Of a stretch of DNA of 64,000 nucleotides, positions 4,211 to 21,781 are shown one piece after another. Below the pieces are notes generated by a model that saw only the letters and a program-made list of their open reading frames with translations, searched no databases and was not told where the DNA came from. Where the stretch lies: positions 84,678 to 148,677 of the forward strand of contig SEAC01000020.1 of assembly GCA_004173235.1 (NCBI GenBank). Direction: 5' to 3'. Made by a program: the position numbers and the translations under genes. Position 1 is the first letter of the stretch; each line of letters begins with the position of its first letter. This DNA is from Chitinophagaceae bacterium. Lineage in GTDB: Bacteria; Bacteroidota; Bacteroidia; Chitinophagales; Chitinophagaceae.

Positions 4211-4214
4211 AATC

Positions 4215-4301
4215 AATTCAAAATTCAAAAGTAAAAAACTGGTTCTTCGTCAAATGCTGCATAGCAAGCGCTTTTGACTTTTTAATTTTGACTTTTGACT
4301 T
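4215..4301. repeat. AAAGTCA/TTTTGAC heptamer inverted-repeat element
   Basis: AATTCAAAATTCAAAAGTAAAA ... TTTTGACTTTTTAATTTTGACTTTTGACTT; right arm encodes the phosphatase C-terminus and stop. Confidence 0.9.
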
Positions 4302-4755
4302 CTCCGTATCTATTAATGACCGCACTACATGCGGCTTCTATCAAGGAGTACACATCATGGTACCCGGGCTCTTCTCCGTACCAGGGGTCGGGAACGTCTT
4401 CGTTCTTGCCCGGGTGCAGCTCGTTGAGCAGGAGGTCGACCTTGCCTGCGTTCCAGTGCCGCCCGGCGATGCGCTTCATATCCACCACCACGTCGTTGGC
4501 CATGGCGTAGATCTTATCATAGCGATGCAGGTCTTCGGCCACAAATCGGCGTGCGCGCTGCCGGCAGATGTCGACGCCATTGTGCTGCGCCACTTTCTGC
4601 GACAACCGGTGCGGCGCTTCGCCCACGTGGTAGCCGTTGGTGCCCGCGCTTTCCACCGTCCACTGCAGACCCTCCGCATCTGCCTTGTGCTGCAAAATGC
4701 CTTCCGCAAGCGGGCTGCGACAGATGTTGCCGAGGCATACCATCAGGATTTTCAT
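4282..4755 (-). CDS. Low molecular weight protein-tyrosine-phosphatase
   Basis: MKILMVCLGNICRSPLAEG P-loop and DVPDPWYG motif; ATG at 4755. Confidence 0.95.
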   Translation of the reverse strand: MKILMVCLGNICRSPLAEGILQHKADAEGLQWTVESAGTNGYHVGEAPHRLSQKVAQHNGVDICRQRARRFVAEDLHRYDKIYAMANDVVVDMKRIAGRHWNAGKVDLLLNELHPGKNEDVPDPWYGEEPGYHDVYSLIEAACSAVINRYGEVKSQN

Positions 4756-8815: not shown

Positions 8816-9226
8816 ATGTTCCATTTGCTTCAAGCCGACATTACCCGCGCTGTGCAAGACGTGCAAGGCGCTGGCAGCTACCTTCCCGTAGCGCTTCAGT
8901 TCCTGTTTGCATTCGGGATGATTGGTACCCTCATGGGCGTTACCCACCTGCTGGGCCCCAAGCGCAAGACTGCCGACAAGCTCGAAAACTTCGCCTCGGG
9001 CATCGAAAGCCATGGAGCTGCGCGTCAGCCGATGGCGATCAAGTATTTCCTGGTGGCCATTCTTTTCGTTTTGTTTGACGTGGAAGTGATCTTTTTCTAT
9101 CCCTACGCGGTTAATTTCCGTGGATTGGGCTGGGATGGGTTTGTGGCTGTGGTGATGTTCGTAGCCTTTTTCCTGTGCGGGTTCATCTACTGCGTGAAGA
9201 AAGGTGCGCTCAAATGGGAAGACTGA
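8816..9226 (+). CDS. nuoA: NADH-quinone oxidoreductase subunit A
   Basis: FASGIE, KYFLVAILFVLFDVEVIFFYP, KKGALKWE; start ATG 8816 preferred (ORF begins 8795). Confidence 0.95.
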   Translation: MFHLLQADITRAVQDVQGAGSYLPVALQFLFAFGMIGTLMGVTHLLGPKRKTADKLENFASGIESHGAARQPMAIKYFLVAILFVLFDVEVIFFYPYAVNFRGLGWDGFVAVVMFVAFFLCGFIYCVKKGALKWED

Positions 9227-9340
9227 ATTAAAAAGTCAAAATTCGAAAGTCAAAAAGCGGAGCCATCCCAGTTCCGCACTGTTTTTGACCTCGTTAACGC
9301 GTAACAATTTTGACTTTTGACTTTTAAATTTTGAATTATT
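9227..9340. repeat. AAAGTCA/TTTTGAC heptamer inverted-repeat element (nuoA-nuoB)
   Basis: AAAAGTCAAAATTCGAAAGTCAAAAA ... TTTTGACTTTTGACTTTTAAATTTTGAATT. Confidence 0.9.
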
Positions 9341-9925
9341 ATGGCACGTCCCGTATCGTTCAACATACACGAAAAACCGCTGGAGAGAGACATCTCGGTG
9401 GCTGAAATGCCTGATGGCTTCCAGGGGGAAGGATTCTTTGCCCAAAAGCTGAGCGAGGCCGTGGGCCTCGCGCGCAAGAATTCCATCTGGCCGCTCCCTT
9501 TTGCCACTTCCTGCTGCGGTATTGAATTCATGGCCACGATGGCCTCCCACTACGACCTTGCCCGCTTCGGCGCCGAACGCCTCGGCTTTTCGCCGCGCCA
9601 GTGCGACCTGCTGATGGTGATGGGCACCATCTCGAAGAAAATGGCACCGGTGGTGCGCCAGGTATACCTGCAGATGGCTGAGCCCCGATGGGTGATGGCC
9701 GTGGGTGCCTGCGCCTGCTCCGGCGGTGTGTTCGACTCGTACAGCGTGCTCCAGGGCATCGACCAGGTGGTGCCTGTAGACGTGTATGTGCCCGGCTGCC
9801 CGCCGCGCCCCGAGGCCATCATCGACGGCATCCTGCGCATCCAGGACCTTGTGGGCAAGGAAAGCCTGCGCCGCCGCAACAGCGATCATTATAAAACGCT
9901 CCTCGAGAGCTACGGTATACAATAA
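9341..9925 (+). CDS. nuoB: NADH-quinone oxidoreductase subunit B
   Basis: WPLPFATSCCGIE, SPRQCD, GACACSGG, YVPGCPPRPE. Confidence 0.97.
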   Translation: MARPVSFNIHEKPLERDISVAEMPDGFQGEGFFAQKLSEAVGLARKNSIWPLPFATSCCGIEFMATMASHYDLARFGAERLGFSPRQCDLLMVMGTISKKMAPVVRQVYLQMAEPRWVMAVGACACSGGVFDSYSVLQGIDQVVPVDVYVPGCPPRPEAIIDGILRIQDLVGKESLRRRNSDHYKTLLESYGIQ

Positions 9926-10014
9926 TTAAAAAGTCAAAAGTAACAAGTCAAATGGGTTCTTCGCCGATGATACTGAATGAGCTTTTGACTTTCGACTTTT
10001 GAATTTTGACTTTC
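9926..10014. repeat. AAAGTCA/TTTTGAC heptamer inverted-repeat element (nuoB-nuoC)
   Basis: AAAAAGTCAAAAGTAACAAGTCAAA ... TTTTGACTTTCGACTTTTGAATTTTGACTTT. Confidence 0.9.
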
Positions 10015-10569
10015 ATGAGTAACGAACAAATCCAGCAGCAACTCCAGGAGCACTTCGGCGACACCGTCAAGGGTTTCGAGGAGTCTTACGGCATGCTGAC
10101 TTTCGAAGCGGAAACCGGACGGAACATTGACGTGCTCCGTTTTTTGTATGAGCAGGGCTTCCGTTTTCTTACCGATGTGACGGCCGTGCACTACCCGGCG
10201 TTTGCCGGCCGCGAGATCGCCGTGGTGTATCACCTGCACAACCTGGTGGACAACATCCGCATCCGCTTCAAAGTGTTTGCGCCCATAGCGAAGCCCGACG
10301 TGGCGAGCGCAACGGCTATTTTTGAAAGCGCCAACTGGCAGGAGCGAGAGGCCTACGATTTCTTTGGCGTCAACTTCACGGGCCACCCCAACCTGAAGCG
10401 GATCCAAAACGTTGAGGAGATGGACTACTTCCCGCTGCGCAAGGAGTTCCCGCTCGAAGACCAGACGCGCATCGATAAAGACGACGAGATGTTCGGTCGG
10501 GGCGGCTCGTTCGATTTCGGAAACCGCCAGGAAGACGGCTCGCCCGCGCAGCTGGCAAACAATGAGTAA
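10015..10569 (+). CDS. nuoC: NADH-quinone oxidoreductase subunit C
   Basis: ANWQEREAYDFFGVNFTGHPNLKRI, FPLRKEFPL; ATG 10015. Confidence 0.96.
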   Translation: MSNEQIQQQLQEHFGDTVKGFEESYGMLTFEAETGRNIDVLRFLYEQGFRFLTDVTAVHYPAFAGREIAVVYHLHNLVDNIRIRFKVFAPIAKPDVASATAIFESANWQEREAYDFFGVNFTGHPNLKRIQNVEEMDYFPLRKEFPLEDQTRIDKDDEMFGRGGSFDFGNRQEDGSPAQLANNE

Positions 10570-10570
10570 T

Positions 10571-10595
10571 GCCCTTCGACTCCGCTCAGGGCGAC
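10571..10595. repeat. REP-like palindrome (reverse complement GTCGCCCTGAGCGGAGTCGAAGGGC)
   Basis: GCCCT...AGGGC stem with an internal loop and a terminal GAC/GTC tag. Confidence 0.7.
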
Positions 10596-10663
10596 AAGCC
10601 CTCCGCAGGGTCAAGGAGTAAGAATAAGTTTAAACGGTGAAGCCGGAATTTTGGATGAAAGCC

Positions 10664-10691
10664 ATTCACGATTCACGATTCACGATTCACG
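10664..10691 (+). repeat. Perfect heptamer tandem repeat (ATTCACG)4
   Basis: Four exact copies ending 6 nt before the nuoD ATG. Confidence 0.95.
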
Positions 10692-10697
10692 ATAACA

Positions 10698-11933
10698 ATG
10701 GCCACAACAAATCCGCATTCCCACATCCCGCTTCCGGAAGGAGCGCTTGAGAAGGAAACGACGACCATCAACCTCGGCCCCACGCACCCGGCCACGCACG
10801 GCGTGTTCCAGAACATCGTGGAGCTCGATGGCGAAACCGTGGTGTCGGCCGAGCAGACCATCGGCTATATCCACCGGGCCTTCGAAAAGATCGCCGAGCG
10901 CCGCCCGCTTTACCAGATCACGCCGCTGACCGACCGCCTCAACTACTGCTCGGCGCCCATCAACAACATGGGCTGGCATATGACCTGCGAAAAGCTTCTG
11001 GGCATCCAAACGCCGAAGCGCGTAGATTATCTCCGCGTGATCATCATGGAACTGGCCCGCATCGCCGATCACATCATCTGCAACTCCGTGATCGGGGTAG
11101 ACACCGGCGCTTTCACCGGCTTCCTCTACGTGATGCAGTACCGCGAACTCATCTACGAGATCTGGGAAGAAGTGTGCGGCTCGCGCCTCACCACCAACAT
11201 CGGCCGCATCGGTGGCTTCGAGCGCGACTTCAACAACATCGCTTTTACCAAGCTGGAAAAATTCCTTGCCGAATTCCCCGACGTACTGCGGGAGTTCGAT
11301 AGCCTCTTCACGCGCAACCGCATTTTCATGGACCGCACCATCGGCGCGGGCCCCATTGGAGCGGAGCGCGCCCTCAACTACGGCTTCACCGGTCCCAACC
11401 TGCGTGCAGCGGGTGTGGATTACGATGTGCGCGTGCATTCGCCCTACTGCTCTTACCAGGACTTCGAGTTCAGCATTCCCACCGGCACCACCGGCGACTG
11501 CTACGACCGCTTCCTGGTGCGCAACGGCGAAATGTGGGAGTCGATCTCCATCGTGCGCCAGGCCTACCAGAAGCTCCAGGACATAAAGGGCGCGGATGCA
11601 TCGGTGTACCACGCCGACGTGCCCGAGTATTACCTCCCCGACAAGAAAGATGTGTACACGAAGATGGAAGCGCTGATCTACCACTTCAAGATCGTCATGG
11701 GCGAGGTTAATATACCGCCGGGCGAAGTATACCACAGCGTGGAAGGCGCCAACGGCGAGCTGGGCTTCTACCTCATCTCCGATGGTGGCCGCAGCCCGTA
11801 CCGCCTGCACTTCCGCCGTCCCTGCTTCGTATACTACCAGGCCTACGAAGAACTGGTAAAAGGGGGCATGTTGTCCGACGCCATCATCACGATGTCGTCG
11901 CTCAACCTGATCGCCGGCGAAATGGATGGGTAA
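10698..11933 (+). CDS. nuoD: NADH-quinone oxidoreductase subunit D
   Basis: NLGPTHPATHG, GYIHRAFEK, DRLNY, EGANGELGFY, IAGEMD. Confidence 0.97.
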   Translation: MATTNPHSHIPLPEGALEKETTTINLGPTHPATHGVFQNIVELDGETVVSAEQTIGYIHRAFEKIAERRPLYQITPLTDRLNYCSAPINNMGWHMTCEKLLGIQTPKRVDYLRVIIMELARIADHIICNSVIGVDTGAFTGFLYVMQYRELIYEIWEEVCGSRLTTNIGRIGGFERDFNNIAFTKLEKFLAEFPDVLREFDSLFTRNRIFMDRTIGAGPIGAERALNYGFTGPNLRAAGVDYDVRVHSPYCSYQDFEFSIPTGTTGDCYDRFLVRNGEMWESISIVRQAYQKLQDIKGADASVYHADVPEYYLPDKKDVYTKMEALIYHFKIVMGEVNIPPGEVYHSVEGANGELGFYLISDGGRSPYRLHFRRPCFVYYQAYEELVKGGMLSDAIITMSSLNLIAGEMDG

Positions 11934-12044
11934 AGACGCACCATGTGCGTCTCTGTGTGAGATGTAAAGACGCACCATGTGCGTCTCCGATAGCGTAAAG
12001 ACGCACCATGTGCGTCTCCAGTAAAGACGCACTATGTGCGTCTC
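11930..12044 (+). repeat. Four tandem 24-bp GTAG-type REP palindromes
   Basis: GTAAAGACGCACCATGTGCGTCTC at 11930, 11964, 11995 and 12021 (last has one substitution); spacers 10, 7 and 2 nt. Confidence 0.95.
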
Positions 12045-12059
12045 CTAAAACGAACGACA

Positions 12060-12557
12060 ATGACCTTTTCAGAAGACAAACTCAATAAAGTACGCGAGAT
12101 CGTGGCGCGCTACCCCGAAGGGAAGCAGAAGAGCGCCCTCATCCCCGTGCTGCACCTGGCACAGGAAGCCAACAATGGCTGGCTGTCGTCGGACGCGATG
12201 GATTACGTGGCTTCGCTGCTCGACCTGAAGCCGATCGAAGTGTACGAGGTGGCGACCTTCTACAGCATGTTCAACCTGAAGCCGATCGGCAAGTACCTGT
12301 TTGAGGTGTGCCAGACCGGCCCCTGCATGGTGAACGGCTCCGACGATATCATCGCCTACATCAAGCAGAAGCTGGATATCGGCGTGGGTGAAACCACTAC
12401 CGACGGCATGTTCACGCTGAAGACCGTTGAGTGCCTTGGCGCCTGCGGTTATGCGCCCATGATGCAGCTGGGCAAATTTTACAAAGAGCACCTCACTCCT
12501 GAAAAGGTGGATGCGATCATTGACGAATGCCGTAGAAATGCGGTTGCTAATAATTAA
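12060..12557 (+). CDS. nuoE: NADH-quinone oxidoreductase subunit E
   Basis: VATFYSMF, VCQTGPC, ECLGACGYAPMM 2Fe-2S motifs; ATG 12060. Confidence 0.96.
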   Translation: MTFSEDKLNKVREIVARYPEGKQKSALIPVLHLAQEANNGWLSSDAMDYVASLLDLKPIEVYEVATFYSMFNLKPIGKYLFEVCQTGPCMVNGSDDIIAYIKQKLDIGVGETTTDGMFTLKTVECLGACGYAPMMQLGKFYKEHLTPEKVDAIIDECRRNAVANN

Positions 12558-12643
12558 AAAGTCAAAATTCGAAAGTAAAAACGCTCATGCGATACCAACA
12601 GCGTAGAACCGGTTTTTGACTTTTGAATTTTGAATTTTGACTT
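12556..12643. repeat. AAAGTCA/TTTTGAC heptamer inverted-repeat element (nuoE-nuoF)
   Basis: AAAAAGTCAAAATTCGAAAGTAAAA ... TTTTTGACTTTTGAATTTTGAATTTTGACTT. Confidence 0.9.
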
Positions 12644-12650
12644 GTACACC

Positions 12651-14003
12651 ATGGGTAGAAAATTATTACTCGAACACGAACACGTAGAAGGCATCCGCTA
12701 CTACGAAACCTACCGCCGCAACGGTGGTTATGCCGCCGTGGAGAAGGCCTTCAAAATGGGCCCTGCCGACATCGTGGAAGAAGTGAAGAAGAGCGGCCTC
12801 CGTGGCCGTGGTGGCGCCGGCTTCCCTACCGGTATGAAGTGGAGCTTCCTTGCCAAGCCCGAGGGCGTTCCGCGCTACCTCGTTTGCAACGCCGACGAAT
12901 CGGAGCCCGGTACCTTCAAGGACCGCTACCTGATGGAGTTCCTCCCGCACCTGCTGATCGAGGGGCTCATCATTTCTTCGTTTGCGCTGGGCTCCAACCG
13001 CACCTATATCTATATCCGCGGCGAATATGCCTGGATCGTAGATATACTGGAGCAGGCTATTGCCGAAGCCAACCAGGCGGGCTTCCTCGGAAAGAACATT
13101 CTCGGCTCGGGCTTCGACTGCCAGATCTATGTGCAGCGCGGCGCGGGTGCCTATATCTGCGGTGAAGAAACCGCGCTCCTCGAATCGCTCGAAGGCAAGC
13201 GCGGCAACCCACGCATCAAGCCGCCCTTCCCCGCTATCAAGGGACTCTACGACTGCCCCACCGTGGTCAACAACGTGGAGACGCTCGCAGCGGTGGTGCC
13301 CATCATCAACATCGGTGGTGAGGAGTATGCGAAGATCGGCGTGGGCAAATCAACCGGTACCAAGCTCATCTCGGCCTGCGGCAACATCAACAAGCCCGGC
13401 ATCTACGAGATCGACATGACCATCTCGGTAGAAGAATTCATATACGGCGAGGAATACTGCGGCGGCATCCCCAAAGGCAAGCGCCTGAAGGCTTGCATTC
13501 CTGGTGGTTCTTCGGTTCCCATCCTGCCTGCCAACCTCCTGCTCAAAACGGCAAAAGGCGAGCAGCGGATGATGACCTACGAAAGCCTCGCCGATGGCGG
13601 CTTCCCCACGGGTTCGATGATGGGCTCGGGTGGATTCATCGTGCTGGATGAAGACCAGTGCGTGGTGCGCCACACTTATTCGCTGGCACGCTTCTACCGC
13701 CACGAAAGCTGCGGCCAGTGTTCGCCCTGCCGCGAAGGCACGGGCTGGATGGAAAAGATCCTGCACAAGATCGAGCACGGTAAAGGCGATATGCGCGATA
13801 TCGACCTGCTGTGGGATATCCAGAGCAAGATCGAAGGCAACACCATCTGCCCCCTGGGTGATGCGGCTGCCTGGCCGGTGGCTGCGGCCATCCGCCACTT
13901 CCGCGACGAATTTGAATGGCACGTGCTGAACCCCGAGGAAAGCCAGAAGCGCAACTTCGGGCTGGCGCATTATGCGGATCCGATTTCGGTTGCCGTAGGA
14001 TAA
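12651..14003 (+). CDS. nuoF: NADH-quinone oxidoreductase subunit F
   Basis: GLRGRGGAGFPTG, NADESEPGTFKD, GAYICGEETAL, ESCGQCSPCREG; ATG 12651. Confidence 0.97.
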   Translation: MGRKLLLEHEHVEGIRYYETYRRNGGYAAVEKAFKMGPADIVEEVKKSGLRGRGGAGFPTGMKWSFLAKPEGVPRYLVCNADESEPGTFKDRYLMEFLPHLLIEGLIISSFALGSNRTYIYIRGEYAWIVDILEQAIAEANQAGFLGKNILGSGFDCQIYVQRGAGAYICGEETALLESLEGKRGNPRIKPPFPAIKGLYDCPTVVNNVETLAAVVPIINIGGEEYAKIGVGKSTGTKLISACGNINKPGIYEIDMTISVEEFIYGEEYCGGIPKGKRLKACIPGGSSVPILPANLLLKTAKGEQRMMTYESLADGGFPTGSMMGSGGFIVLDEDQCVVRHTYSLARFYRHESCGQCSPCREGTGWMEKILHKIEHGKGDMRDIDLLWDIQSKIEGNTICPLGDAAAWPVAAAIRHFRDEFEWHVLNPEESQKRNFGLAHYADPISVAVG

Positions 14004-14007
14004 ATAG

Positions 14008-14351
14008 AAAGTCAAAATTCAAAAGTCAAAAGGCCTCGCTGTTCGCACAGTTTTATAGGTTTGAGACTTCTAAATTTTGACCGGATGGAGTTTGAAGATC
14101 TTTTTTTATTGGAAGACGGCGAGAAGCGATCGCTTTGAAGTCGGCCAATGAAACGAAATATTGGATTTGCCTGATCCGTGAAACGATGGATTTGGACAAA
14201 CGAAAACTAAATGAGTTGCTCCAGGAAGCCAACGAGCTTTCGAAGATAATCGCCAGTATTATCACAAGTGAGTGATTCGAATTGAGTACGCTGGCCAACG
14301 AGCGGAGTCTACGACCTGCTTTTTGACTTTTGACTTTTGAATTTTGACTTT
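14008..14351. mobile_element. Heptamer inverted-repeat element enclosing a four-helix-bundle gene remnant
   Basis: Left arm AAAGTCAAAATTCAAAAGTCAAAA (14008-14031) is perfectly complementary to 24 nt of the right arm (14321-14351); the interior is AT-rich. Confidence 0.7.
14096..14275 (+). pseudogene. 3' fragment of a four helix bundle protein gene (TIGR02436 / 23S rRNA IVP-like)
   Basis: Manual translation ...IALKSANETKYWICLIRETMDLDKRKLNELLQEANELSKIIASIITSE* fits the A-x-E-T-x-Y-W ... E-L-x-x-I-I C-terminal half; in-frame TGA at 14093-14095 and no start that includes the ETKYW motif. Confidence 0.75.
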
Positions 14352-14353
14352 AT

Positions 14354-15544
14354 ATGTCAGAAGAGAAGAAACTTTTTAAGGTAACGATCGACAACATCAC
14401 GGTGGAAGTCGAGCAGGGCACTACGATCCTCATGGCCGCCCGCAAGATTGGTGGCGATATAGTGCCGCCCACGATGTGCTACTACAGCAAGCTCGATAAG
14501 ACAGGTGGTTATTGCCGCACCTGCCTCGTGCGCGTGGCTGCAGGCTCTACCGCCGACCCGCGCCCGATGCCCAAGCTCGTGGCCTCCTGCCGCACGCAGG
14601 TGATGGACGGAATGATCGTGGAAAACATCACCAACCCCACGGTGCTCGAAGCACGCAAGGGCGTTGTTGAATTCCTGCTGCTCAACCACCCGCTCGACTG
14701 CCCCGTGTGCGACCAGGCCGGTGAGTGCGACCTGCAGGATCTTTCGTACCAGCACGGTAAGGAGGGCACCCGCTACGAGTTTAAGCGCCGCACCTTCGAG
14801 CGTATCGACCTCGGGCCTTATATCCAGCTGCACATGACGCGCTGCATTCTTTGCTACCGCTGCGTGCACACCGCCAACCAGGTGGCCGGCGGCCGCGAGC
14901 ACGGCGTGCTGGATCGGGGCGACCACGCGCAGATCGCAACCTATATACAGAAGTCGCTTGATAACGAAATGATCGGCAACGTCATCGACGTTTGTCCGGT
15001 AGGCGCGCTTACCGACCGCACGTTCCGCTTCAAGAACCGCGTGTGGTTTACCAAGCCGGTGGACGCGCACCGCGATTGCACCCATTGCAAGGGTGAAGTG
15101 CGCCTGTGGATGCGCGGCGACGACGTGCTGCGCGTTACCGCCCGCAAAGATCAGTGGGGTGAAGTGGGTAACAACTCCGATGGCAGCACGGGCTGGATCT
15201 GCAACGAATGCCGCTTCGAGAAGAAGCAGGTGAGCGACTGGACCATCGAAGGTCCTACGCGCGTAGACCGCCACTCGGTGATCAATGCGGGACACTACAC
15301 GAACACGGTAGTGCCGAAAGAAACCTTCCAGGATGTGATGAAGGGCCGCGATCCGAAATTGCTGATGGACATCCACAGCGTTTCCGATGTAAATACAGTG
15401 GACCTCAACGTGCTTCCCGGACCGGCAACCAGCGCCACCTTCAACGGCCACCCGCAGGCCAGCGGCGTCAACGTTACCGATGTGAAGGAAGGCGTGGGAA
15501 GAAACAAAATGGGAACGGATTCGACGAATGCCAATACTCCGTGA
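14354..15544 (+). CDS. nuoG: NADH-quinone oxidoreductase subunit G (short, Fe-S domain only)
   Basis: CYY...CRTCLV, HPLDCPVCDQAGECDLQ, CILCYRCV, CPVGALT. Confidence 0.95.
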   Translation: MSEEKKLFKVTIDNITVEVEQGTTILMAARKIGGDIVPPTMCYYSKLDKTGGYCRTCLVRVAAGSTADPRPMPKLVASCRTQVMDGMIVENITNPTVLEARKGVVEFLLLNHPLDCPVCDQAGECDLQDLSYQHGKEGTRYEFKRRTFERIDLGPYIQLHMTRCILCYRCVHTANQVAGGREHGVLDRGDHAQIATYIQKSLDNEMIGNVIDVCPVGALTDRTFRFKNRVWFTKPVDAHRDCTHCKGEVRLWMRGDDVLRVTARKDQWGEVGNNSDGSTGWICNECRFEKKQVSDWTIEGPTRVDRHSVINAGHYTNTVVPKETFQDVMKGRDPKLLMDIHSVSDVNTVDLNVLPGPATSATFNGHPQASGVNVTDVKEGVGRNKMGTDSTNANTP

Positions 15545-15610
15545 ACCGTGAGCCTGGAACCGTGAGCGCCATCCGGCTACCTGCTCACGGCTGACGGCTG
15601 ACGCTTCACG
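15541..15610. repeat. GTGARCC/GCTSACG heptamer inverted-repeat element (nuoG-nuoH)
   Basis: GTGAACC GTGAGCC TGGAACC GTGAGC ... GCTCACG GCTGACG GCTGACG CTTCACG; contains the nuoG stop. Confidence 0.85.
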
Positions 15611-15652
15611 AAACGATATCATCACGGGGCGCAGCTCCACACTGAAGCAACT

Positions 15653-16786
15653 ATGCACTTACTAATGGCAGAATGGGTCATCACCCTCATTGAAAAATTT
15701 GCACTGGTGGCGATCATCGTAACGGTGTCGCTGGTAGTGGCGATGTACAGCACCTATGCGGAGCGCAAGATCGCGGCCTTCCTCCAGGACCGCCGCGGCC
15801 CCAACCGCGCCGGGCCTTTCGGCCTCTTGCAACCGCTTGCAGATGGCGTGAAGCTGTTCATGAAAGAAGAGATCATCCCGAACACGTCTTCGAAATTCCT
15901 CTTTATTGCAGGCCCACTGCTCGCAATGATCACGGCTACCATGACGAGTGCGGTCATCCCCTGGGGACCAACCTCGACGATGTTCGGCCACACCATGCCG
16001 CTGCAGATCGCCGACATCAACATCGGCGTGCTCTACATCTTCGGTGTGGTTTCGCTGGGCGTATACGGCATCATGATCGGCGGCTGGGCCTCCAACAATA
16101 AATTCTCGCTGCTGGCAGCCATCCGCGGCGCCTCGCAGATGATCTCCTACGAACTGGCGATGGGCCTTTCGCTCCTGGCCGTGCTGCTCATCGTGGGCGA
16201 CCTGCGCATGAGCGTGATCGTGGACTACCAGATCCAGCATGGCTGGAACGTGCTCTACCAGCCGCTTGGCTTCTTCATTTTCTTTATCTGCGCCCTTGCC
16301 GAGTGCAACCGCACGCCCTTCGACCTTCCGGAAGCGGAGAACGAGCTGAACATGGGCTACCATCAGGAGTATTCTTCGATGAAGCTTGGTTTCTACCTCT
16401 TTGCGGAGTATATCAACATGTTCATTTCGGGTGTGGTGATGGCGACGCTCTTTTTCGGCGGCTGGGACATCCCGTTTTTCAACGAAGCGGCGCACGGCGG
16501 CGCGTGGTGGGTTGGACTGCTCAGTTTCGCCTGCCTCATGTGCAAAGCATTCTTCTCCATCTTCCTGTTCATGTGGATCCGCTGGACCATCCCGCGCTTC
16601 CGCTTCGACCAGCTGATGAACCTCGGGTGGCGTGGCCTTCTGCCGCTGGCACTCGCCAACATGGTAATCACCGCAGGACTCGTTCTGTGGCTCAATAATG
16701 ACGCTGCGCCCGCCCCTCAAAAAGGAGTAATTTCGCAGCCGTCGCAAACTCAACAAGTAAGCCTGACAAATGCAACTCACCAATAA
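15653..16786 (+). CDS. nuoH: NADH-quinone oxidoreductase subunit H
   Basis: ERKIAAFLQDRRGPNRAGPFGLLQPLADGVK, AECNRTPFDLPEAE, PRFRFDQLM. Confidence 0.97.
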   Translation: MHLLMAEWVITLIEKFALVAIIVTVSLVVAMYSTYAERKIAAFLQDRRGPNRAGPFGLLQPLADGVKLFMKEEIIPNTSSKFLFIAGPLLAMITATMTSAVIPWGPTSTMFGHTMPLQIADINIGVLYIFGVVSLGVYGIMIGGWASNNKFSLLAAIRGASQMISYELAMGLSLLAVLLIVGDLRMSVIVDYQIQHGWNVLYQPLGFFIFFICALAECNRTPFDLPEAENELNMGYHQEYSSMKLGFYLFAEYINMFISGVVMATLFFGGWDIPFFNEAAHGGAWWVGLLSFACLMCKAFFSIFLFMWIRWTIPRFRFDQLMNLGWRGLLPLALANMVITAGLVLWLNNDAAPAPQKGVISQPSQTQQVSLTNATHQ

Positions 16787-17312
16787 GAACAAGCCGGTAG
16801 ATCGCCGGCCGATGACGGTGGCCGAGAAGCTGTACATCCCCGCGATCATCAAGGGCATGGGCATCACCTTCAGCCACATGTTCAAGAAGAAGCCGACGAT
16901 CAGCTATCCCGAGGAGCAGCGCCCATTCTCGGCAGTTTTCCGCGGGCTGCAGATCCTCAACCGCGACGAGGAAGGACGTGAGCGCTGCACCGCCTGCGGC
17001 CTGTGCGCCCTTGCCTGCCCTGCCGAAGCCATTACGATGGAAGCGGCGGAGCGCCAGGCTGGCGAAGAGCACCTCTACCGGGAAGAGAAGTACGCAGCCA
17101 GGTACGAGATCAATATGCTGCGCTGCATCTTTTGCGGACTGTGCGAAGAAGCCTGCCCGAAGGATGCCATCTACCTCTCTCAAACTTTTGCGCCCGCCAA
17201 CTACGGTCGCAAGGGCTTTATTTATAAGAAGGACGACCTGCTGATACCCGACCCGACGACGGATCCGGAAGGCTACGCGAAAGCGAAAGGAACGATCCCC
17301 CAATCGAAATAA
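16770..17312 (+). CDS. nuoI: NADH-quinone oxidoreductase subunit I
   Basis: CTACGLCALACP and CIFCGLCEEACP 4Fe-4S motifs. Confidence 0.97.
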   Translation: MQLTNKNKPVDRRPMTVAEKLYIPAIIKGMGITFSHMFKKKPTISYPEEQRPFSAVFRGLQILNRDEEGRERCTACGLCALACPAEAITMEAAERQAGEEHLYREEKYAARYEINMLRCIFCGLCEEACPKDAIYLSQTFAPANYGRKGFIYKKDDLLIPDPTTDPEGYAKAKGTIPQSK

Positions 17313-17326
17313 ACCACAACCTGCTC

Positions 17327-17884
17327 ATGGGAATTACGGAAATACTCTTTTGGATCCTTGCGGTGGCCTCCATCGGCAGTGCGCTGATGGTGGTCACGAG
17401 CAAGAACCCCATCTTCAGCGTGATCTGGCTGATCGTAACCTTTTTTACCATCTCCGGTCACTACATCCTGCTCAACGCGCAGTTCCTGGCCGTGGTGAAC
17501 ATCATCGTGTACGCCGGCGCCATCATGGTGCTGTTCCTCTTCGTGATCATGCTGATGAACCTCGATAAGAACACCGAAGTGCAGAAGGGACGCTGGATGC
17601 GGCTCATCGGCGCCGTTGCGGGCGGATGCCTGCTGCTGGTGCTCGTGGCCGGCCTGCGCAGCACCGAAGCGCGCGCAACCCAACTGGGTACGGGCGACAT
17701 CGGCCTCATCCAGAACCTTGGCCGCGTGCTGTTTACCGAATACGTAGTGCCTTTCGAACTGAGCTCGGTGCTCTTCCTCACTGCGATGGTAGGCGCCGTA
17801 GTTATCGGCAAGCGCGACCAGACCGGCCGTGCCGCCGTGGCTACCGCGGCCGCAACAACCGCAGGAACGTTGGAAGCGGAGTAA
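17327..17884 (+). CDS. nuoJ: NADH-quinone oxidoreductase subunit J
   Basis: IVYAGAIMVLFLFVIML, PFELSSVLFL. Confidence 0.96.
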   Translation: MGITEILFWILAVASIGSALMVVTSKNPIFSVIWLIVTFFTISGHYILLNAQFLAVVNIIVYAGAIMVLFLFVIMLMNLDKNTEVQKGRWMRLIGAVAGGCLLLVLVAGLRSTEARATQLGTGDIGLIQNLGRVLFTEYVVPFELSSVLFLTAMVGAVVIGKRDQTGRAAVATAAATTAGTLEAE

Positions 17885-17911
17885 ACCTCAAAACAAGCGA
17901 ATAACATCCTC

Positions 17912-18241
17912 ATGGATATCCGATACTACATTTTTCTCTCCATCGCGCTGTTCGTCACCGGCATCATCGGTGTGCTCACGCGTCGCAATGCCATCGTCAT
18001 CTTCATGTGCATTGAGCTGATGCTGAATGCTGTGAATCTGCTGCTGGTGGCTTTTTCGAAGATGCACTATAAGGCGCTCGCCGCCACGAACCCTACGGCG
18101 GGCACCGACGGACAACTGTTCGTGTTCTTCATCATGGTGGTTGCCGCAGCTGAAGTAAGCGTCGGCCTGGCTATCATCGTGATGCTATACCGCAACACGC
18201 GCTCGGTAGATATTAACTTTCTGAATCGTCTTAAACATTAA
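17912..18241 (+). CDS. nuoK: NADH-quinone oxidoreductase subunit K
   Basis: [32 protein letters not shown]. Confidence 0.96.
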
Positions 18242-18313
18242 TTCAAAAGGCGAAAGTCAAAATTCAAAAACCGGTTCGTTGCAAACGCTTTTGACTTTTG
18301 ACTTTTGAATTTT
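18241..18313. repeat. AAAGTCA/TTTTGAC heptamer inverted-repeat element (nuoK-nuoL)
   Basis: ATTCAAAAGGCGAAAGTCAAAATTCAAAAA ... TTTTGACTTTTGACTTTTGAATTTT. Confidence 0.9.
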
Positions 18314-18321
18314 CCTTCGTC

Positions 18322-20226
18322 ATGAAGAATCTGATCGCACTCATACCGCTTCTACCCCTCGCCGGTTTCCTCATCAACGGGCTTGGGCGTAATTTCCTGT
18401 CGAAGGGCCTCGTGAGCATCATCGGCTCCGGCACCGTGCTCGGCTCCTTCATCATCAGCTGCATGCTTTTCTCGCGGGGCGAGTTCTCGAGCGTTCCCTA
18501 CAAGTACTTCGACTTCATCAACGTCGGCACGCTGCACATCCCCTTCGCATTCCAGATCGACCAGCTGTCGACCCTGTTCCTGCTGATCATCACGGGCGTG
18601 GGCTTCCTCATCCACGTGTACTCCACGGCTTATATGCACGAAGAGAACCGCGGGCACTTCGGCCGCTACTTCGCGTACCTCAATCTCTTCGTATTCTCGA
18701 TGCTCCTGCTGGTGATGGGCGCCAACTACCTGATCATGTTCATCGGCTGGGAAGGCGTGGGCCTTTGCTCTTACCTGCTCATCGGCTACTGGTTCAAAAA
18801 CATCGATTACACCAAGGCGGCAAAAAAGGCCTTCGTGATGAACCGCATCGGCGACCTCGGCTTCCTCCTCGCACTCTTCTGGATGCTGCAGCGATTCGGC
18901 ACACTATCGTACCACGAGCTGTTCAGCGCCAATGGCATCATCGCCTCACTACACACGCTCGATACCACCGATATCGTAGGCATCACATTGCTCCTCTTCG
19001 TGGGCGCAACGGGTAAGAGCGCACAGATCCCGCTCTACACCTGGCTCCCCGACGCCATGGCAGGTCCAACGCCCGTGTCGGCGCTGATCCACGCCGCAAC
19101 GATGGTGACCGCAGGCATTTACATGATCGCGCGCAGCAACATCCTGTATAACCTTGCGCCCTCCACTCTTACCGTGATCGCTTATGTGGGTGGTGCTACC
19201 GCGCTTCTCGCAGCCACCATCGCCGTGAAGCAGAACGATATCAAAAAGGTACTCGCTTATTCCACCGTGAGCCAGCTCGGATACATGTTCCTCGCCCTCG
19301 GCACCGGCGCTTACGTTGCCGGCGTCTTCCACGTGATGACGCACGCATTCTTCAAGGCGCTGCTGTTCCTCGGCTCCGGCTCTGTGATCCACGCTATGAG
19401 CGGCCAGCAGGATATCCGTTTCATGGGCGGCCTGCGCAAGAAACTCAAGATCACCTATCTCACTTTCCTCATTGGTTGCATTGCCATCGCCGGCATCCCG
19501 CCATTCAGCGGCTTCTTCTCCAAAGACGCCATCCTGCTCAGCGCATTCGAACACGAAAAGTTTCTCTGGGTAGTGGGCCTGCTTACCGCAGCACTCACCG
19601 CTTTCTATATGTTCCGCCTGCTCTTTGTTACGTTCAACGGTTCCTTCCGCGGCACCGAGGAGCAGCGTCATCATGTGCATGAAAGCCCCGCAGCAATGAC
19701 CATCCCGCTCATCGTGCTGGCCATCCTCTCGATCGTTGGCGGGTTTGTGGGCGTGCCCGAAGTGTTTGCAGAAGGAGGGGAGCGGCTCGCTGCTTTCCTC
19801 TCGCCGGTGATCGCGCAGCACCACGGGAATGTGGAGCATGCAGGCGTATCGCACGGTACCGAGCTGGCGCTGATGGCCGGCACCACGATTCTTGCGCTGC
19901 TTGCCATCGGGTTTGCATGGTTCCGCTACCGCAACTACCGCGAAGAACAGAACGGCGCGTTTGGAAAAGTGCTGGAGAACAAATGGTATGTGGATGAACT
20001 CTACGATTCGGTGATCGTAAAACCGCTCAACGGGCTCGGTCGCTTTGCCGATGTGTTCATCGAACGCAGCGGCATCGATGCACTCGTAAACGGGGTGGGC
20101 CGCGCGGTGAACTATGGTGGTCGCCAACTACGCTGGCTGCAAAGCGGGCAGGTAGGAAGCTACGTGCTGTTGATGGTGATCTCGATGGTGTTGTTCTTTG
20201 TGATGGAATTCTTTCTAAAAAAGTAA
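18322..20226 (+). CDS. nuoL: NADH-quinone oxidoreductase subunit L
   Basis: GWEGVGLCSYLLIGYW, KSAQIPLYTWLPDAMAGPTPVSALIHAATMV; ATG 18322. Confidence 0.97.
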   Translation: MKNLIALIPLLPLAGFLINGLGRNFLSKGLVSIIGSGTVLGSFIISCMLFSRGEFSSVPYKYFDFINVGTLHIPFAFQIDQLSTLFLLIITGVGFLIHVYSTAYMHEENRGHFGRYFAYLNLFVFSMLLLVMGANYLIMFIGWEGVGLCSYLLIGYWFKNIDYTKAAKKAFVMNRIGDLGFLLALFWMLQRFGTLSYHELFSANGIIASLHTLDTTDIVGITLLLFVGATGKSAQIPLYTWLPDAMAGPTPVSALIHAATMVTAGIYMIARSNILYNLAPSTLTVIAYVGGATALLAATIAVKQNDIKKVLAYSTVSQLGYMFLALGTGAYVAGVFHVMTHAFFKALLFLGSGSVIHAMSGQQDIRFMGGLRKKLKITYLTFLIGCIAIAGIPPFSGFFSKDAILLSAFEHEKFLWVVGLLTAALTAFYMFRLLFVTFNGSFRGTEEQRHHVHESPAAMTIPLIVLAILSIVGGFVGVPEVFAEGGERLAAFLSPVIAQHHGNVEHAGVSHGTELALMAGTTILALLAIGFAWFRYRNYREEQNGAFGKVLENKWYVDELYDSVIVKPLNGLGRFADVFIERSGIDALVNGVGRAVNYGGRQLRWLQSGQVGSYVLLMVISMVLFFVMEFFLKK

Positions 20227-20251
20227 TTCCTCGCCTTCGCTCGGAATGGCA
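20226..20251. repeat. REP-like palindrome (reverse complement TGCCATTCCGAGCGAAGGCGAGGAAT)
   Basis: ATTCC...GGAAT stem with a TCGC/TCG loop; followed by a lone TTTTGACTTTTGAATT heptamer arm (about 20274-20290). Confidence 0.65.
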
Positions 20252-20302
20252 AAACGATGGCGGCAAGCTGCCTTTTGACTTTTGAATTGAATTGACTGTA
20301 TT

Positions 20303-21778: not shown

Positions 21779-21781
21779 GAT

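What the first reader, a model, noticed from the sequence alone, without database searches (positions are those of the whole stretch)
14008..14351. Decaying four-helix-bundle gene captured between heptamer arms: the likely parent of the empty elements
Seen: the one enlarged heptamer element (289-nt interior) holds the 3' half of a four-helix-bundle ORF (ALKSANETKYW...ELSKIIASII*) with its 5' half missing, between 24-bp perfectly complementary arms. Known: this family was first found in Leptospira 23S rRNA intervening sequences, which are excised from the RNA without religation, and it is related to the DGR accessory protein Avd; its function is unknown. Inference: heptamer arms + four-helix gene may be an mRNA analogue of an intervening sequence, or a DNA element whose protein recognises the 7-nt-periodic arms. 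This copy looks like an intermediate in decay toward the empty form.
Basis: partly seen in the sequence, partly recalled or inferred. Interest (0 to 1): 0.76.

Follow-up and report, generated by a model that had tools for sequence, protein, structure and literature searches.

The report
Dying four-helix-bundle hairpin cassette in nuo
A small gene of the family first found inside ribosomal-RNA "intervening sequences", enclosed by mirror-image runs of a 7-base repeat, has sat between nuoF and nuoG in two orders of Bacteroidota; in this genome a 187-base deletion has just killed it while its hairpin arms survive.

Summary
Window 14004-14355 fills the nuoF-nuoG gap. It has 25 bp perfectly complementary arms (29 bp with one mismatch) built of AAAGTCA/AAATTCA units. 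These enclose a remnant matching TIGR02436 positions 59-107.

The gene is not 5'-truncated. Its ATG and 14 codons remain, and a 187-bp internal deletion shifts the frame. Flaviaesturariibacter amylovorans holds the intact 125-aa orthologue at the same site with the same arms.

The gene was not "captured". All nine family genes in this genome, and members in four other phyla, have periodic inverted arms, mostly of period 7. This lineage lies exactly between nuoF and nuoG in 73 of the 80 closest loci (Chitinophagaceae and Mucilaginibacter). There it has conserved AAA[G/T]T[C/A]A units and mostly co-diverges with its host. Four relocated copies sit at other junctions.

Within the genus, six copies are pseudogenes and one is arms-only, so decay toward an empty hairpin is real at this site. 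About 30 dispersed gene-less hairpins share the arms, but their loops are unrelated, so parentage is unproven.

Best reading: a 23S-IVS-type hairpin cassette living in an operon junction and looped out of the transcript. RNase III cutting and heptamer reading by the protein are inferred, not shown.

The parts
12630..14003 (+). nuoF. The stop codon TAA is at 14001-14003 and the left arm begins at the next base.
   Evidence: ORF list. NuoF orthologues are 85-95% identical in relatives.
14004..14032 (+). Left arm. It consists of tandem heptamers AAAGTCA AAATTCA AAAGTCA AAAG; the perfect core is 14008-14032.
   Evidence: the repeat finder pair I1. The same arm is present in the intact orthologue of G041.
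14039..14067 (+). Conserved leader of the cassette (CTGTTCGCACAGTTTTATAGGTTTGAGAC). It contains TAGGTTTG, which fits the Bacteroidota -7 box TAnnTTTG and may be the cassette's own promoter.
   Evidence: The block is 29/29 identical between G000 and G041, although synonymous sites have dS of about 1. The promoter reading is an inference from the known consensus.
14085..14138 (+). Truncated reading frame. The ATG and 14 original codons (MEFEDLFLLEDGEK) are followed by an out-of-frame RSL and a stop.
   Evidence: Sequence. Alignment to the intact G041 gene.
14125..14128 (+). Junction of the 187-nt internal deletion. It removes codons 15-76 plus one base, and GC is shared by both edges.
   Evidence: Pairwise alignment A2, columns 139-325.
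14126..14275 (+). Frame-shifted C-terminal half of the four-helix-bundle gene (helices 3-4: AIALKSANETKYWICLIRETMDLDKRKLNELLQEANELSKIIASIITSE, then a stop).
   Evidence: TIGR02436 34.9 bits, positions 59-107/109. PF05635 31.2 bits. dN/dS against G041 is 0.11.
14276..14326 (+). 3' trailer of the cassette, including an extra, unpaired heptamer unit at 14320-14326.
   Evidence: Alignment to G041. Repeat families D1 and I2.
14327..14355 (+). Right arm (CTTTTGACTTTTGAATTTTGACTTTATAT). Its last two bases are the AT of the nuoG ATG.
   Evidence: the repeat finder pair I1. The RNA fold closes the whole insert at -117 kcal/mol, z = -5.6.
14354..15544 (+). nuoG. Its start codon lies at the base of the stem.
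   Evidence: ORF list. Orthologues in relatives.
9227..9340 (+). Gene-less hairpin of the same AAAGTCA family in the nuoA-nuoB gap. It is orthologous in G041.
9926..10014 (+). Gene-less AAAGTCA hairpin in the nuoB-nuoC gap. It is orthologous in G041 with an unrelated loop.
12556..12644 (+). Gene-less AAAGTCA hairpin in the nuoE-nuoF gap. The nuoE stop codon overlaps the arm.
18241..18313 (+). Gene-less AAAGTCA hairpin in the nuoK-nuoL gap.
4214..4302 (+). Gene-less AAAGTCA-family hairpin outside the nuo operon.

Best explanation
SHOWN.
- Window 14004-14355 is a recently inactivated copy of a hairpin cassette.
- The cassette is a TIGR02436/PF05635 four-helix-bundle gene with its own conserved leader, enclosed by two inverted arrays of AAA[G/T]T[C/A]A heptamers.
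- This cassette lineage occupies the nuoF-nuoG junction in Chitinophagaceae and Mucilaginibacter and mostly co-diverges with its host.
- Where the gene is intact it is under purifying selection.
- It has occasionally moved, gene plus arms together, to other junctions between co-oriented genes.
- In this genome a 187-bp internal deletion with a frameshift killed the gene not long ago. The arms are still perfect.

INFERRED, how it works.
- The cassette is transcribed within the nuo mRNA.
- Its arms pair into a 25-29 bp stem. The base of that stem joins the nuoF stop codon (0 nt away) to the nuoG start codon (inside the stem).
- The roughly 350-nt insert (about 540 nt when intact) is thus looped out, and the junction geometry of an uninterrupted operon is restored.
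- This is the same trick that lets the family's members sit in 23S rRNA helices, where RNase III cuts the stem.
- I expect RNase III to process this stem too. That would release the cassette RNA and separate the nuoA-F and nuoG-N parts of the transcript.

INFERRED more weakly.
- The pentameric, Avd-like protein recognises its own heptamer arrays.
- This would explain why the unit sequence, and not just the pairing, is conserved across orders.
- It would also explain why gene-less hairpins with the same units accumulate in genomes that carry the gene.
For: Identity and decay:
- Family match on the remnant.
- The intact orthologue scores 77.1 bits on TIGR02436 and matches PDB 2RLD, which has five chains.
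- Alignment shows the 187-nt deletion.
- dN/dS of the remnant against G041 is 0.11 at dS 0.96. Between G041 and G044, dN is 0.27 with dS saturated.
- At the same site in the genus there are 5 intact copies, 6 pseudogenes with different lesions, 1 arms-only state and 1 copy cut by a contig end.

Gene and arms as one unit:
- All 9 family genes in this genome have periodic inverted arms, each with its own unit.
- In the phylum, 13 of 30 pass a strict rule against 0 of 180 shifted controls.
- Five plasmid loci from Nostoc, Euhalothece, Chlorohelix and Treponema have heptamer tracts around the gene.

Deep residence:
- 73 of the 80 closest loci lie between nuoF and nuoG.
- 70 of those 73 have intact open frames, and 65 of 73 have period-7 arms.
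- Arms start a median 5 nt after the nuoF stop and end 6 nt before the nuoG ATG.
- Distances between the 4HB proteins track host distances: r = 0.60, Mantel 0 of 2000, and the Mucilaginibacter copies are monophyletic at 0.954.

Relocation as a unit:
- Copies with the same arms lie in the nuoD-E, nuoC-D and ilvB-N gaps and beside a peptidase gene.
- On a short-protein tree whose support I did not inspect, these copies fall within the Chitinophagales nuoF-G group.

RNA:
- The fold closes the insert, z = -5.6.
- A metatranscriptome contig from the same sample spans 13883-14348 at depth 41, against 10-11 on nuoF and nuoG. DNA depth is flat at 37-50.
- An RNase III gene is present.
- RNase III cleavage of the Coxiella S23p stem, which contains heptamers, is published (PMC4990558).

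Arms co-evolve at this site: own-arm complementarity is 18.7 of 21 against 17.6 across species, with 7 of 20000 permutations as high.

Link to gene-less hairpins:
- Arms of 5 own cassettes match 39 of 80 gene-less hairpins. Thirteen foreign cassettes match 1.
- AAAGTCA arm counts per genome are higher where the orthologue is present (Mann-Whitney p = 1.5e-5, not corrected for phylogeny).
Against: - No RNA ends were mapped. Contig boundaries in the RNA run equal those in the DNA run, so they reflect the assembly graph and not processing.
- The higher RNA depth over the element argues, if anything, against rapid destruction after cutting. An internal promoter could also explain it.
- Two intact cassettes elsewhere in this genome show little RNA.
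- Stems of gene-less hairpins show no excess of G.U over A.C mismatches on the transcribed strand: 10 against 22.
- In the AAAGTCA family, an element's own arms pair no better than arms taken from different elements: 18.4 against 18.7 of 21. RNA pairing is therefore not visibly selected in the gene-less copies.
- Complete genomes hold many AAAGTCA arms without the orthologue: G007 has 54 and G083 has 44.
- The protein has no known catalytic motif. No binding data exist.
Confidence: 0.6

Rival explanations
1. A master gene with dependent DNA repeats, like REPIN-RAYT but without a known nuclease. The four-helix-bundle protein, alone or with a host enzyme, copies or maintains heptamer hairpins at the DNA level. 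The nuoF-nuoG copy is the vertically inherited master. The roughly 30-40 gene-less AAAGTCA hairpins are its non-autonomous offspring, now orphaned in this genome.
For: - The master gene is single-copy, site-fixed and mostly vertically inherited.
- It is flanked by its own repeat in inverted orientation.
- Gene-less copies with the same unit are dispersed over about 20 contigs.
- Their number ranges from 0 to 175 arms among congeners and is higher where the orthologue exists.
- Five cassettes in this genome each have a matching gene-less family.
- The unit sequence is conserved across orders although dS saturates within the genus.
- Arms are nearer perfect beside intact genes, about 19.8 of 21. 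Beside older pseudogenes or arms-only copies they score about 17.3 (small n).
Against: - The protein has no nuclease or recombinase motif, and nothing matched in PADLOC.
- No target-site duplication is seen at filled versus empty sites.
- Loops of gene-less copies are all different, unlike REPINs.
- Complete genomes keep dozens of arms without the orthologue.
- The largest hairpin family here, GTGAGCC with 21 members, has no gene-bearing copy.
- The association test is not corrected for phylogeny.
Confidence: 0.25
2. Host-selected cis elements with a passenger or regulator gene. Heptamer hairpins placed right after stop codons would be REP-like RNA elements (stabilisers, processing or coupling sites) or binding sites of a global regulator. 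On this view the four-helix-bundle gene is that regulator, or merely rides along, and its loss here is ordinary gene loss.
For: - 80 gene-less heptamer hairpins start a median 2 nt after the upstream stop codon. Their spread over co-directional, convergent and divergent gaps is close to background.
- Arms are conserved between G000 and G041 while loops are randomised.
- The element's RNA is more abundant than the flanking coding RNA.
- Long vertical retention under purifying selection suggests use to the host.
- Geobacter authors proposed heptanucleotide hairpins as global regulator sites (PMC2700814).
Against: - The gene family carries such arms in unrelated contexts. These include 23S rRNA, cas operons, restriction-modification operons and plasmids.
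- Gene loss is frequent within the genus, at 6 of 12 scorable sites.
- The same gap is occupied by unrelated cassettes or is empty in many congeners without visible harm.
- No G.U signature of RNA pairing is seen.
Confidence: 0.12
3. Neutral by-product. Heptamer arrays arise by replication slippage in AT-rich spacers, and the small gene lies between two of them by chance.
For: Heptamer repeats are generally over-represented in bacterial intergenic DNA (PMC4692102). The number of units varies between strains in Coxiella.
Against: - 9 of 9 family genes in this genome have inverted periodic arms, against 0 of 180 shifted controls.
- The same unit is kept with the same gene lineage across two orders.
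- The arms co-vary at the orthologous site.
Confidence: 0.03

Closest known systems
ORF-bearing intervening sequences of 23S rRNA (Leptospira; Coxiella burnetii helix-45 IVS with S23p; PMC4990558)
   Same: The protein family is the same (PF05635/TIGR02436). The insert is closed by terminal inverted repeats forming a stem of about 25-28 bp. The stem holds tandem heptamers. The ORF decays in some strains (a 176-bp deletion in Coxiella AuQ01, a 187-bp deletion here). Unit number varies between copies.
   Different: This element sits between two protein-coding cistrons of the nuo operon, not in an rRNA helix. Excision by RNase III is shown for the rRNA elements and only inferred here. This lineage has many gene-less hairpins with the same unit elsewhere in the genome.
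REP/REPIN-RAYT systems (PMC3116915, PMC3733652)
   Same: A single-copy gene, inherited mostly vertically at one site, is flanked by its own repeat in inverted orientation. Tens of gene-less hairpin copies of that repeat are dispersed between genes. Different paralogues in one genome have different cognate repeats.
   Different: The gene encodes a small four-helix bundle and not an HUH Y1 transposase. The repeats are phased 7-nt arrays, not GTAG/CGTC-tagged palindromes. The loops of the gene-less copies are not conserved.
Avd, accessory protein of diversity-generating retroelements
   Same: It is a related four-helix-bundle fold that assembles as a pentamer and binds nucleic acid. This rests on established knowledge; the homologue 2RLD has five chains.
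   Different: No reverse transcriptase, template repeat or variable repeat lies next to this gene. It sits alone between hairpin arms.
Intergenic heptamer repeats: cyanobacterial STRR, Xanthomonas GGGAATC and Nostoc GGGGAYT repeats (PMC4692102), Geobacter heptanucleotide elements (PMC2700814)
   Same: Tandem 7-nt units lie in intergenic DNA, often as convergent pairs, close to the end of the upstream gene and mostly between co-oriented genes.
   Different: Those papers name no associated gene family. Here, and in the Nostoc, Euhalothece and Chlorohelix plasmid loci examined, such arrays bracket a four-helix-bundle gene.

Membership tests
TIGR02436 / PF05635 four-helix-bundle (23S rRNA IVS) protein | Profile match above the curated cut-off | tested here: met
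   The remnant scores 34.9 bits on TIGR02436 (cut-off 24). The intact orthologue in G041 scores 77.1 bits. PF05635 on the fragment gives 31.2 bits, just under 33.8 as expected for half a domain.
TIGR02436 / PF05635 four-helix-bundle (23S rRNA IVS) protein | Complete four-helix open reading frame | tested here: not met
   Only profile positions 59-107 survive, out of frame with the retained start codon. A 187-nt deletion is the cause. This copy is a pseudogene.
TIGR02436 / PF05635 four-helix-bundle (23S rRNA IVS) protein | Pentameric assembly of four-helix bundles | not testable with these tools
   The orthologue matches PDB 2RLD at E = 1e-13, an entry with five chains. No assembly was modelled.
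ORF-bearing 23S rRNA intervening sequence | Located inside a 23S rRNA helix (9, 25 or 45) | tested here: not met
   It lies between the nuoF stop and the nuoG start. No Rfam family matches 13800-14500.
ORF-bearing 23S rRNA intervening sequence | Terminal inverted repeats forming a long stem that closes the insert | tested here: met
   The arms are 29 nt, with 25 bp perfect. The minimum-free-energy fold pairs them, z = -5.6.
ORF-bearing 23S rRNA intervening sequence | Tandem heptamers in the stem and an S23p-family ORF in the loop | tested here: met
   Compare GACAGAT x3 in Coxiella.
ORF-bearing 23S rRNA intervening sequence | Excised from the RNA by RNase III without religation | not testable with these tools
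   The rnc gene is present. The element is transcribed in the same sample's metatranscriptome, but only assembled contigs are available, so no RNA ends can be read.
REPIN-RAYT | HUH Y1 transposase (RAYT) as the associated gene | tested here: not met
   The gene is a four-helix bundle. The listed Pfam and NCBIfam hits include no transposase.
REPIN-RAYT | Gene flanked by its cognate repeat, with dispersed gene-less copies of the same repeat | tested here: met
   About 30 paired gene-less AAAGTCA hairpins were found. Five own cassettes match 39 of 80 hairpins, against 1 of 80 for foreign cassettes.
REPIN-RAYT | Gene-less copies share a conserved internal sequence | tested here: not met
   Loops are 11-88 nt long, with no significant similarity to each other or to the cassette.
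MITE / insertion sequence | Target-site duplication and a transposase (in cis or identifiable in trans) | tested here: not met
   No duplication is seen at the borders when filled and empty gaps are compared. No transposase domain is present.
Intrinsic terminator | GC-rich short stem followed by a T run | tested here: not met
   No terminator-like sites occur in 13900-14450. The stem is long and AU-rich and is followed by the nuoG ATG.

The most novel reading that the evidence does not exclude
Each four-helix-bundle paralogue is the sequence-specific reader of its own heptamer array. Gene plus arrays would form an ancient system resembling REPIN-RAYT but lacking a nuclease.
- The AAA[G/T]T[C/A]A lineage would have lived in the nuoF-nuoG junction since before Chitinophagales and Sphingobacteriales split.
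- It would seed gene-less hairpins just after stop codons at other operon junctions.
- It would occasionally relocate as a unit.
- The 23S rRNA intervening sequences, the 'IVP' genes inside cas operons and much of the unexplained heptanucleotide repeat DNA of bacteria (STRR and similar) would then all be faces of one system.
Probability: 0.3. Interest if true: 0.85.

Novelty: new variant of a known kind. Interest (0 to 1): 0.68.

Why it matters
The proteins encoded in 23S rRNA intervening sequences have had no known function since 1993. Bacterial heptanucleotide repeats have had no known origin.

This locus ties the two together in an ordinary operon and gives unusual evolutionary resolution:
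- One cassette lineage with one conserved repeat unit, fixed at one junction across two orders.
- Purifying selection on the gene where it is intact.
- Repeated independent decay, with intact, deleted, multiply broken and arms-only states at the same site.
- Four relocations of gene plus arms together.
- Matched families of gene-less hairpins in the same genomes.

Cultured strains with an intact copy exist: Flaviaesturariibacter amylovorans JCM 17919 and Flavisolibacter ginsengisoli DSM 18119. RNase III processing, protein-heptamer binding and effects on nuo expression can therefore be tested directly.

Tried and rejected
- The search for related loci with an alignment of the seven diverse paralogues failed because no conserved stretch was found. 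The single intact orthologue worked.
- Two detectors of periodic arms were too strict and missed arms visible by eye. An inverted-repeat-first rule with shifted controls replaced them.
- DNA and RNA 'joints' that skip the interior (14031/14033 to 14318/14321) looked like excision products. Their sides are only 20-30 nt, and their inserted letters match other family members: the nuoK-L hairpin and the hairpin at C9:20315. I rejected them as repeat artefacts.
- RNA contig ends cannot be read as processing sites, because the DNA contig has the same ends.
- I tested whether gene-less loops derive from the cassette. There is no similarity beyond shuffles: the lowest p is 0.015 among 29 tests. With dS near 1 even between the closest genomes, this does not exclude old derivation.
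- I tested for arm covariation within elements of the AAAGTCA family. The result was negative.
- I tested for a G.U bias on the transcribed strand. The result was negative.
- There was no Rfam match, no sigma-70 promoter or terminator pattern and no PADLOC match.
- Literature searches found no paper linking the protein family to heptamer arms in general, beyond the single Coxiella case.
Full report
**1. What is there**

The window carries a nuo operon (nuoA-N, about 8816-23155). The 350-nt gap between the nuoF stop (14001-14003) and the nuoG ATG (14354) is filled by one structure.
- The left arm is 14004-14032 and the right arm is 14327-14355. They are 29 nt and 97% complementary, with a perfect 25-bp core.
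- The arms are tandem 7-nt units, AAAGTCA and AAATTCA. The motif occurs 31 times in the window against 0.09 expected.
- Genome-wide, period-7 tracts (537) far outnumber period-6 tracts (124) and period-5 tracts (13).
- The interior encodes ...ALKSANETKYWICLIRETMDLDKRKLNELLQEANELSKIIASIITSE*. This matches TIGR02436 positions 59-107 of 109 at 34.9 bits (cut-off 24). It matches PF05635 at 31.2 bits, just under the gathering score as expected for half a domain.

**2. The lesion**

A same-genus genome, G041, holds the intact element at the same site with the same arms. One search identified G041 as Flaviaesturariibacter amylovorans JCM 17919. Its 125-aa gene scores 77.1 bits on TIGR02436 and matches PDB 2RLD, an entry with five chains.

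The pairwise alignment shows that the window copy keeps the ATG (14085) and 14 codons. It then lacks 187 nt, with a GC microhomology at the junction (14125-14128). This shifts the frame into a stop at 14136-14138. The gene is internally deleted, not 5'-truncated.

The surviving C-terminal half differs from G041 with dN/dS of 0.11 at dS 0.96. Nearly all of that divergence therefore accrued under selection, and the deletion is recent. Between the intact copies of G041 and G044 (Flavisolibacter ginsengisoli), dS is saturated and dN is 0.27. Where the protein is intact, it is under purifying selection.

**3. Gene and arms are one unit, not a capture**

All eight other TIGR02436 genes of this genome, one of them frameshifted, are also flanked by inverted arrays of short tandem units. 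Each has its own unit: AATCGTG, CTGATGT, ATTCAAT, GTGAATG, TATTGGT and others.

In 30 genomes sampled across the phylum, 13 pass a strict rule for periodic inverted arms. Ten have period 7 and three have period 8. None of 180 shifted control positions passes, and the median inverted-repeat score is 13.5 against 8.

Five plasmid loci from other phyla carry heptamer tracts around the gene: Nostoc punctiforme, Nostoc TCL26-01, Euhalothece, Candidatus Chlorohelix and Treponema saccharophilum. Four are clear inverted arms; in the Treponema locus some tracts are in direct orientation. A sixth locus, from Anabaena cylindrica, is nested and unclear. Some of these genes lie inside cas or restriction-type operons.

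The published Coxiella IVS has the same anatomy. It has an S23p ORF, a 28-bp terminal stem, GACAGAT tandem heptamers, RNase III cleavage in the stem and a 176-bp ORF deletion in one strain (PMC4990558).

**4. The lineage is an old resident of this very junction**

I searched named genomes with the intact orthologue and found 260 relatives. Of the 80 best loci, 73 place the gene exactly between nuoF and nuoG. They come from Flaviaesturariibacter, Flavisolibacter, Filimonas, Ferruginibacter, Sediminibacterium, Pinibacter, Segetibacter, Flavipsychrobacter, Chitinophaga and Mucilaginibacter, and so span two orders.

Among those 73 loci:
- 70 have intact open frames.
- 65 have period-7 arms.
- The unit is AAA[G/T]T[C/A]A throughout.
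- The arms start a median 5 nt after the nuoF stop and end a median 6 nt before the nuoG ATG.

Distances between the 4HB proteins track NuoF+NuoG distances (r = 0.60, Mantel 0 of 2000). The Mucilaginibacter copies are monophyletic with support 0.954. Inheritance is therefore mostly vertical.

Synonymous sites saturate even within the genus. Keeping the same unit sequence across orders therefore means selection on the sequence itself, not merely on pairing.

**5. It can move**

Four members of the same lineage, with the same arms, sit elsewhere:
- between nuoD and nuoE (L137);
- between nuoC and nuoD (L193);
- between the large and small subunits of acetolactate synthase (L180);
- after a peptidase gene (L190).

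The flanking genes were confirmed by Pfam. On a tree of this short protein, whose branch support I did not inspect, all four fall within the Chitinophagales nuoF-G group. Gene plus arms thus appear to relocate as a unit, rarely, and three of the four landed in a junction between adjacent co-oriented genes.

**6. Decay at the orthologous site**

Among 13 species of the genus that carry this element in the nuoF-nuoG gap, the states are as follows:

| State | Genomes |
|---|---|
| Intact (5) | G041, G044, G051, G061, G066 |
| Pseudogene, each with a different lesion (6) | G000 (187-nt deletion), G055 (1-nt deletion), G067 (about 11-nt deletion), G076, G078 (stops), G002 (multiple lesions) |
| Arms only, imperfect (1) | G005 |
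| Cut by a contig end (1) | G070 |

Other congeners have no element (gaps of 7-80 nt). Some have a hairpin with another unit. Others have a GxxExxY nuclease cassette with CTTTGCG-type arms of about 9-11-nt period.

Arms outlive the gene. Own-arm complementarity exceeds cross-species complementarity (18.7 against 17.6 of 21; 7 of 20000 permutations as high). It is highest next to intact genes.

**7. Are the gene-less hairpins its offspring?**

This genome has 80 gene-less heptamer hairpins in at least 28 unit families. About 30 paired ones carry AAAGTCA-type arms and are spread over about 20 contigs. They include the nuoA-B, B-C, E-F and K-L gaps, which are shared with G041 but absent from G044.

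Points in favour of a link:
- Arms of five of the nine cassettes in this genome match 39 of the 80 hairpins at 13 or more of 14 positions. Thirteen foreign cassettes match one.
- Across 72 congeners, AAAGTCA arm counts range from 0 to 175. They are higher where the orthologue is present (Mann-Whitney p = 1.5e-5, not corrected for phylogeny).

Points against simple parentage:
- The loops are all different and unrelated to the cassette.
- An element's own arms pair no better than arms from different elements.
- Two complete genomes keep dozens of arms without the gene.

With dS near 1, lost loop homology is expected for anything old. Parentage is therefore unproven rather than refuted.

**8. How it probably works**

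Shown:
- The stem base abuts the nuoF stop codon and includes two bases of the nuoG start codon.
- The RNA fold closes the insert at -117 kcal/mol, z = -5.6.
- The element is present in a metatranscriptome of the same sample on a contig reaching from nuoF into the right arm. Its depth is 41, against 10-11 for nuoF and nuoG, while DNA depth is flat.
- RNase III is encoded in the genome.

Inferred:
- The hairpin loops the insert out. It restores the stop/start proximity seen in congeners with a 7-nt gap, which is why such inserts are tolerated both in rRNA helices and at cistron junctions.
- RNase III probably cuts the stem, as it does in Coxiella.

Cautions:
- Contig ends are not RNA ends.
- Two intact cassettes elsewhere show little RNA.
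- Gene-less stems carry no G.U-over-A.C bias on the transcribed strand (10 against 22). Selection on them seems to act on unit sequence more than on RNA pairing.

That last point, together with the order-wide conservation of the unit, points to a sequence-specific reader. The encoded pentameric, Avd-like protein is the obvious but untested candidate.

**9. Comparison and novelty**

The element works like, and shares defining parts with, the ORF-bearing 23S rRNA intervening sequences, but it is not in rRNA. It resembles REPIN-RAYT in population structure but lacks the transposase and the conserved loops.

In the searched library, no paper links this protein family to heptamer arms beyond the single Coxiella case. 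Other papers describe heptamer arrays without naming a gene (PMC4692102, PMC2700814), or describe the gene inside cas loci without mentioning arms (PMC3936711).

Earlier notes of this scan describe the same class in other genomes. What this locus adds is a site-fixed lineage across two orders, an orthologous decay series, relocation events, and matching between cassettes and gene-less hairpin families.

Noticed in passing
L016, L023, L031, L026 (nuoF-nuoG gap of G014, G007, G020, G022): In these congeners the same gap holds a GxxExxY-type (PD-(D/E)XK-like) small gene instead. It lies between inverted arms built of CTTTGCG-containing units with a period of about 9-11 nt, not 7. The periodic arms therefore seem to be specific to the gene family they enclose. 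The family call was made by eye; no profile search was run.
   Followed up: partly
window 15545-15652 (nuoG-nuoH gap): This gap holds a gene-less hairpin of a different heptamer family (GTGAGCC/GTCAGCC). It is the largest family in the genome, with 21 or more hairpins, and no gene-bearing cassette for it was found in this 92%-complete assembly. G041 has a GGGAATC/GGCAATC hairpin at the same gap.
   Followed up: partly
window 11934-12059 (nuoD-nuoE gap): This gap holds a head-to-tail array of four 24-bp palindromes (AAAGACGCACCATGTGCGTCTC). In the metatranscriptome, contig depth there is 121-146, more than ten times that of neighbouring nuo coding sequence. G041 has heptamer arms at this gap instead.
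   Followed up: no
G000 genome-wide (80 hairpins): Heptamer hairpins begin a median 2 nt after the stop codon of the upstream gene (interquartile range -2.5 to 7). Some include the stop codon in the arm, for example nuoE TAA|AAAGTCA at window 12555-12564.
   Followed up: partly
L085 (G041), L087 (G002), L088 (G005): nuoE-nuoF gap: Relatives carry an extra 600-1100 nt with a small gene between nuoE and nuoF. In G041 the protein begins MTLTPYIMFNGTCEEALNFYAGALGG and I have not identified it. The window has only a 93-nt hairpin there.
   Followed up: no
L021 (G001) and L133: A P-loop ATPase-like gene is inserted directly after nuoF, or after the cassette. Its product begins ...IEIKNFKSI.HQKIE.C..(V/I)NVF(V/I)GYPNVGKSNILE. 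This is another independent occupant of the same junction.
   Followed up: no
L080, L081 (Nostoc sp. TCL26-01 and Anabaena cylindrica plasmids): A four-helix-bundle gene with AGTAAAA heptamer tracts around it lies between cas2 and cas1, on the strand opposite to both. This fits the earlier report of 18 such genes in cas loci (PMC3936711).
   Followed up: partly
G000:C33:55041-55345: A second family gene in this genome is split into two overlapping frames (hits L008 and L009), so it is probably frameshifted. It still lies between GTGAATG/GTCAATG arms.
   Followed up: no
window 14039-14067: The cassette leader is 29/29 identical to G041 despite saturated neutral divergence. It contains TAGGTTTG, which fits the Bacteroidota -7 promoter box. 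An internal promoter could explain the higher RNA depth over the element.
   Followed up: no
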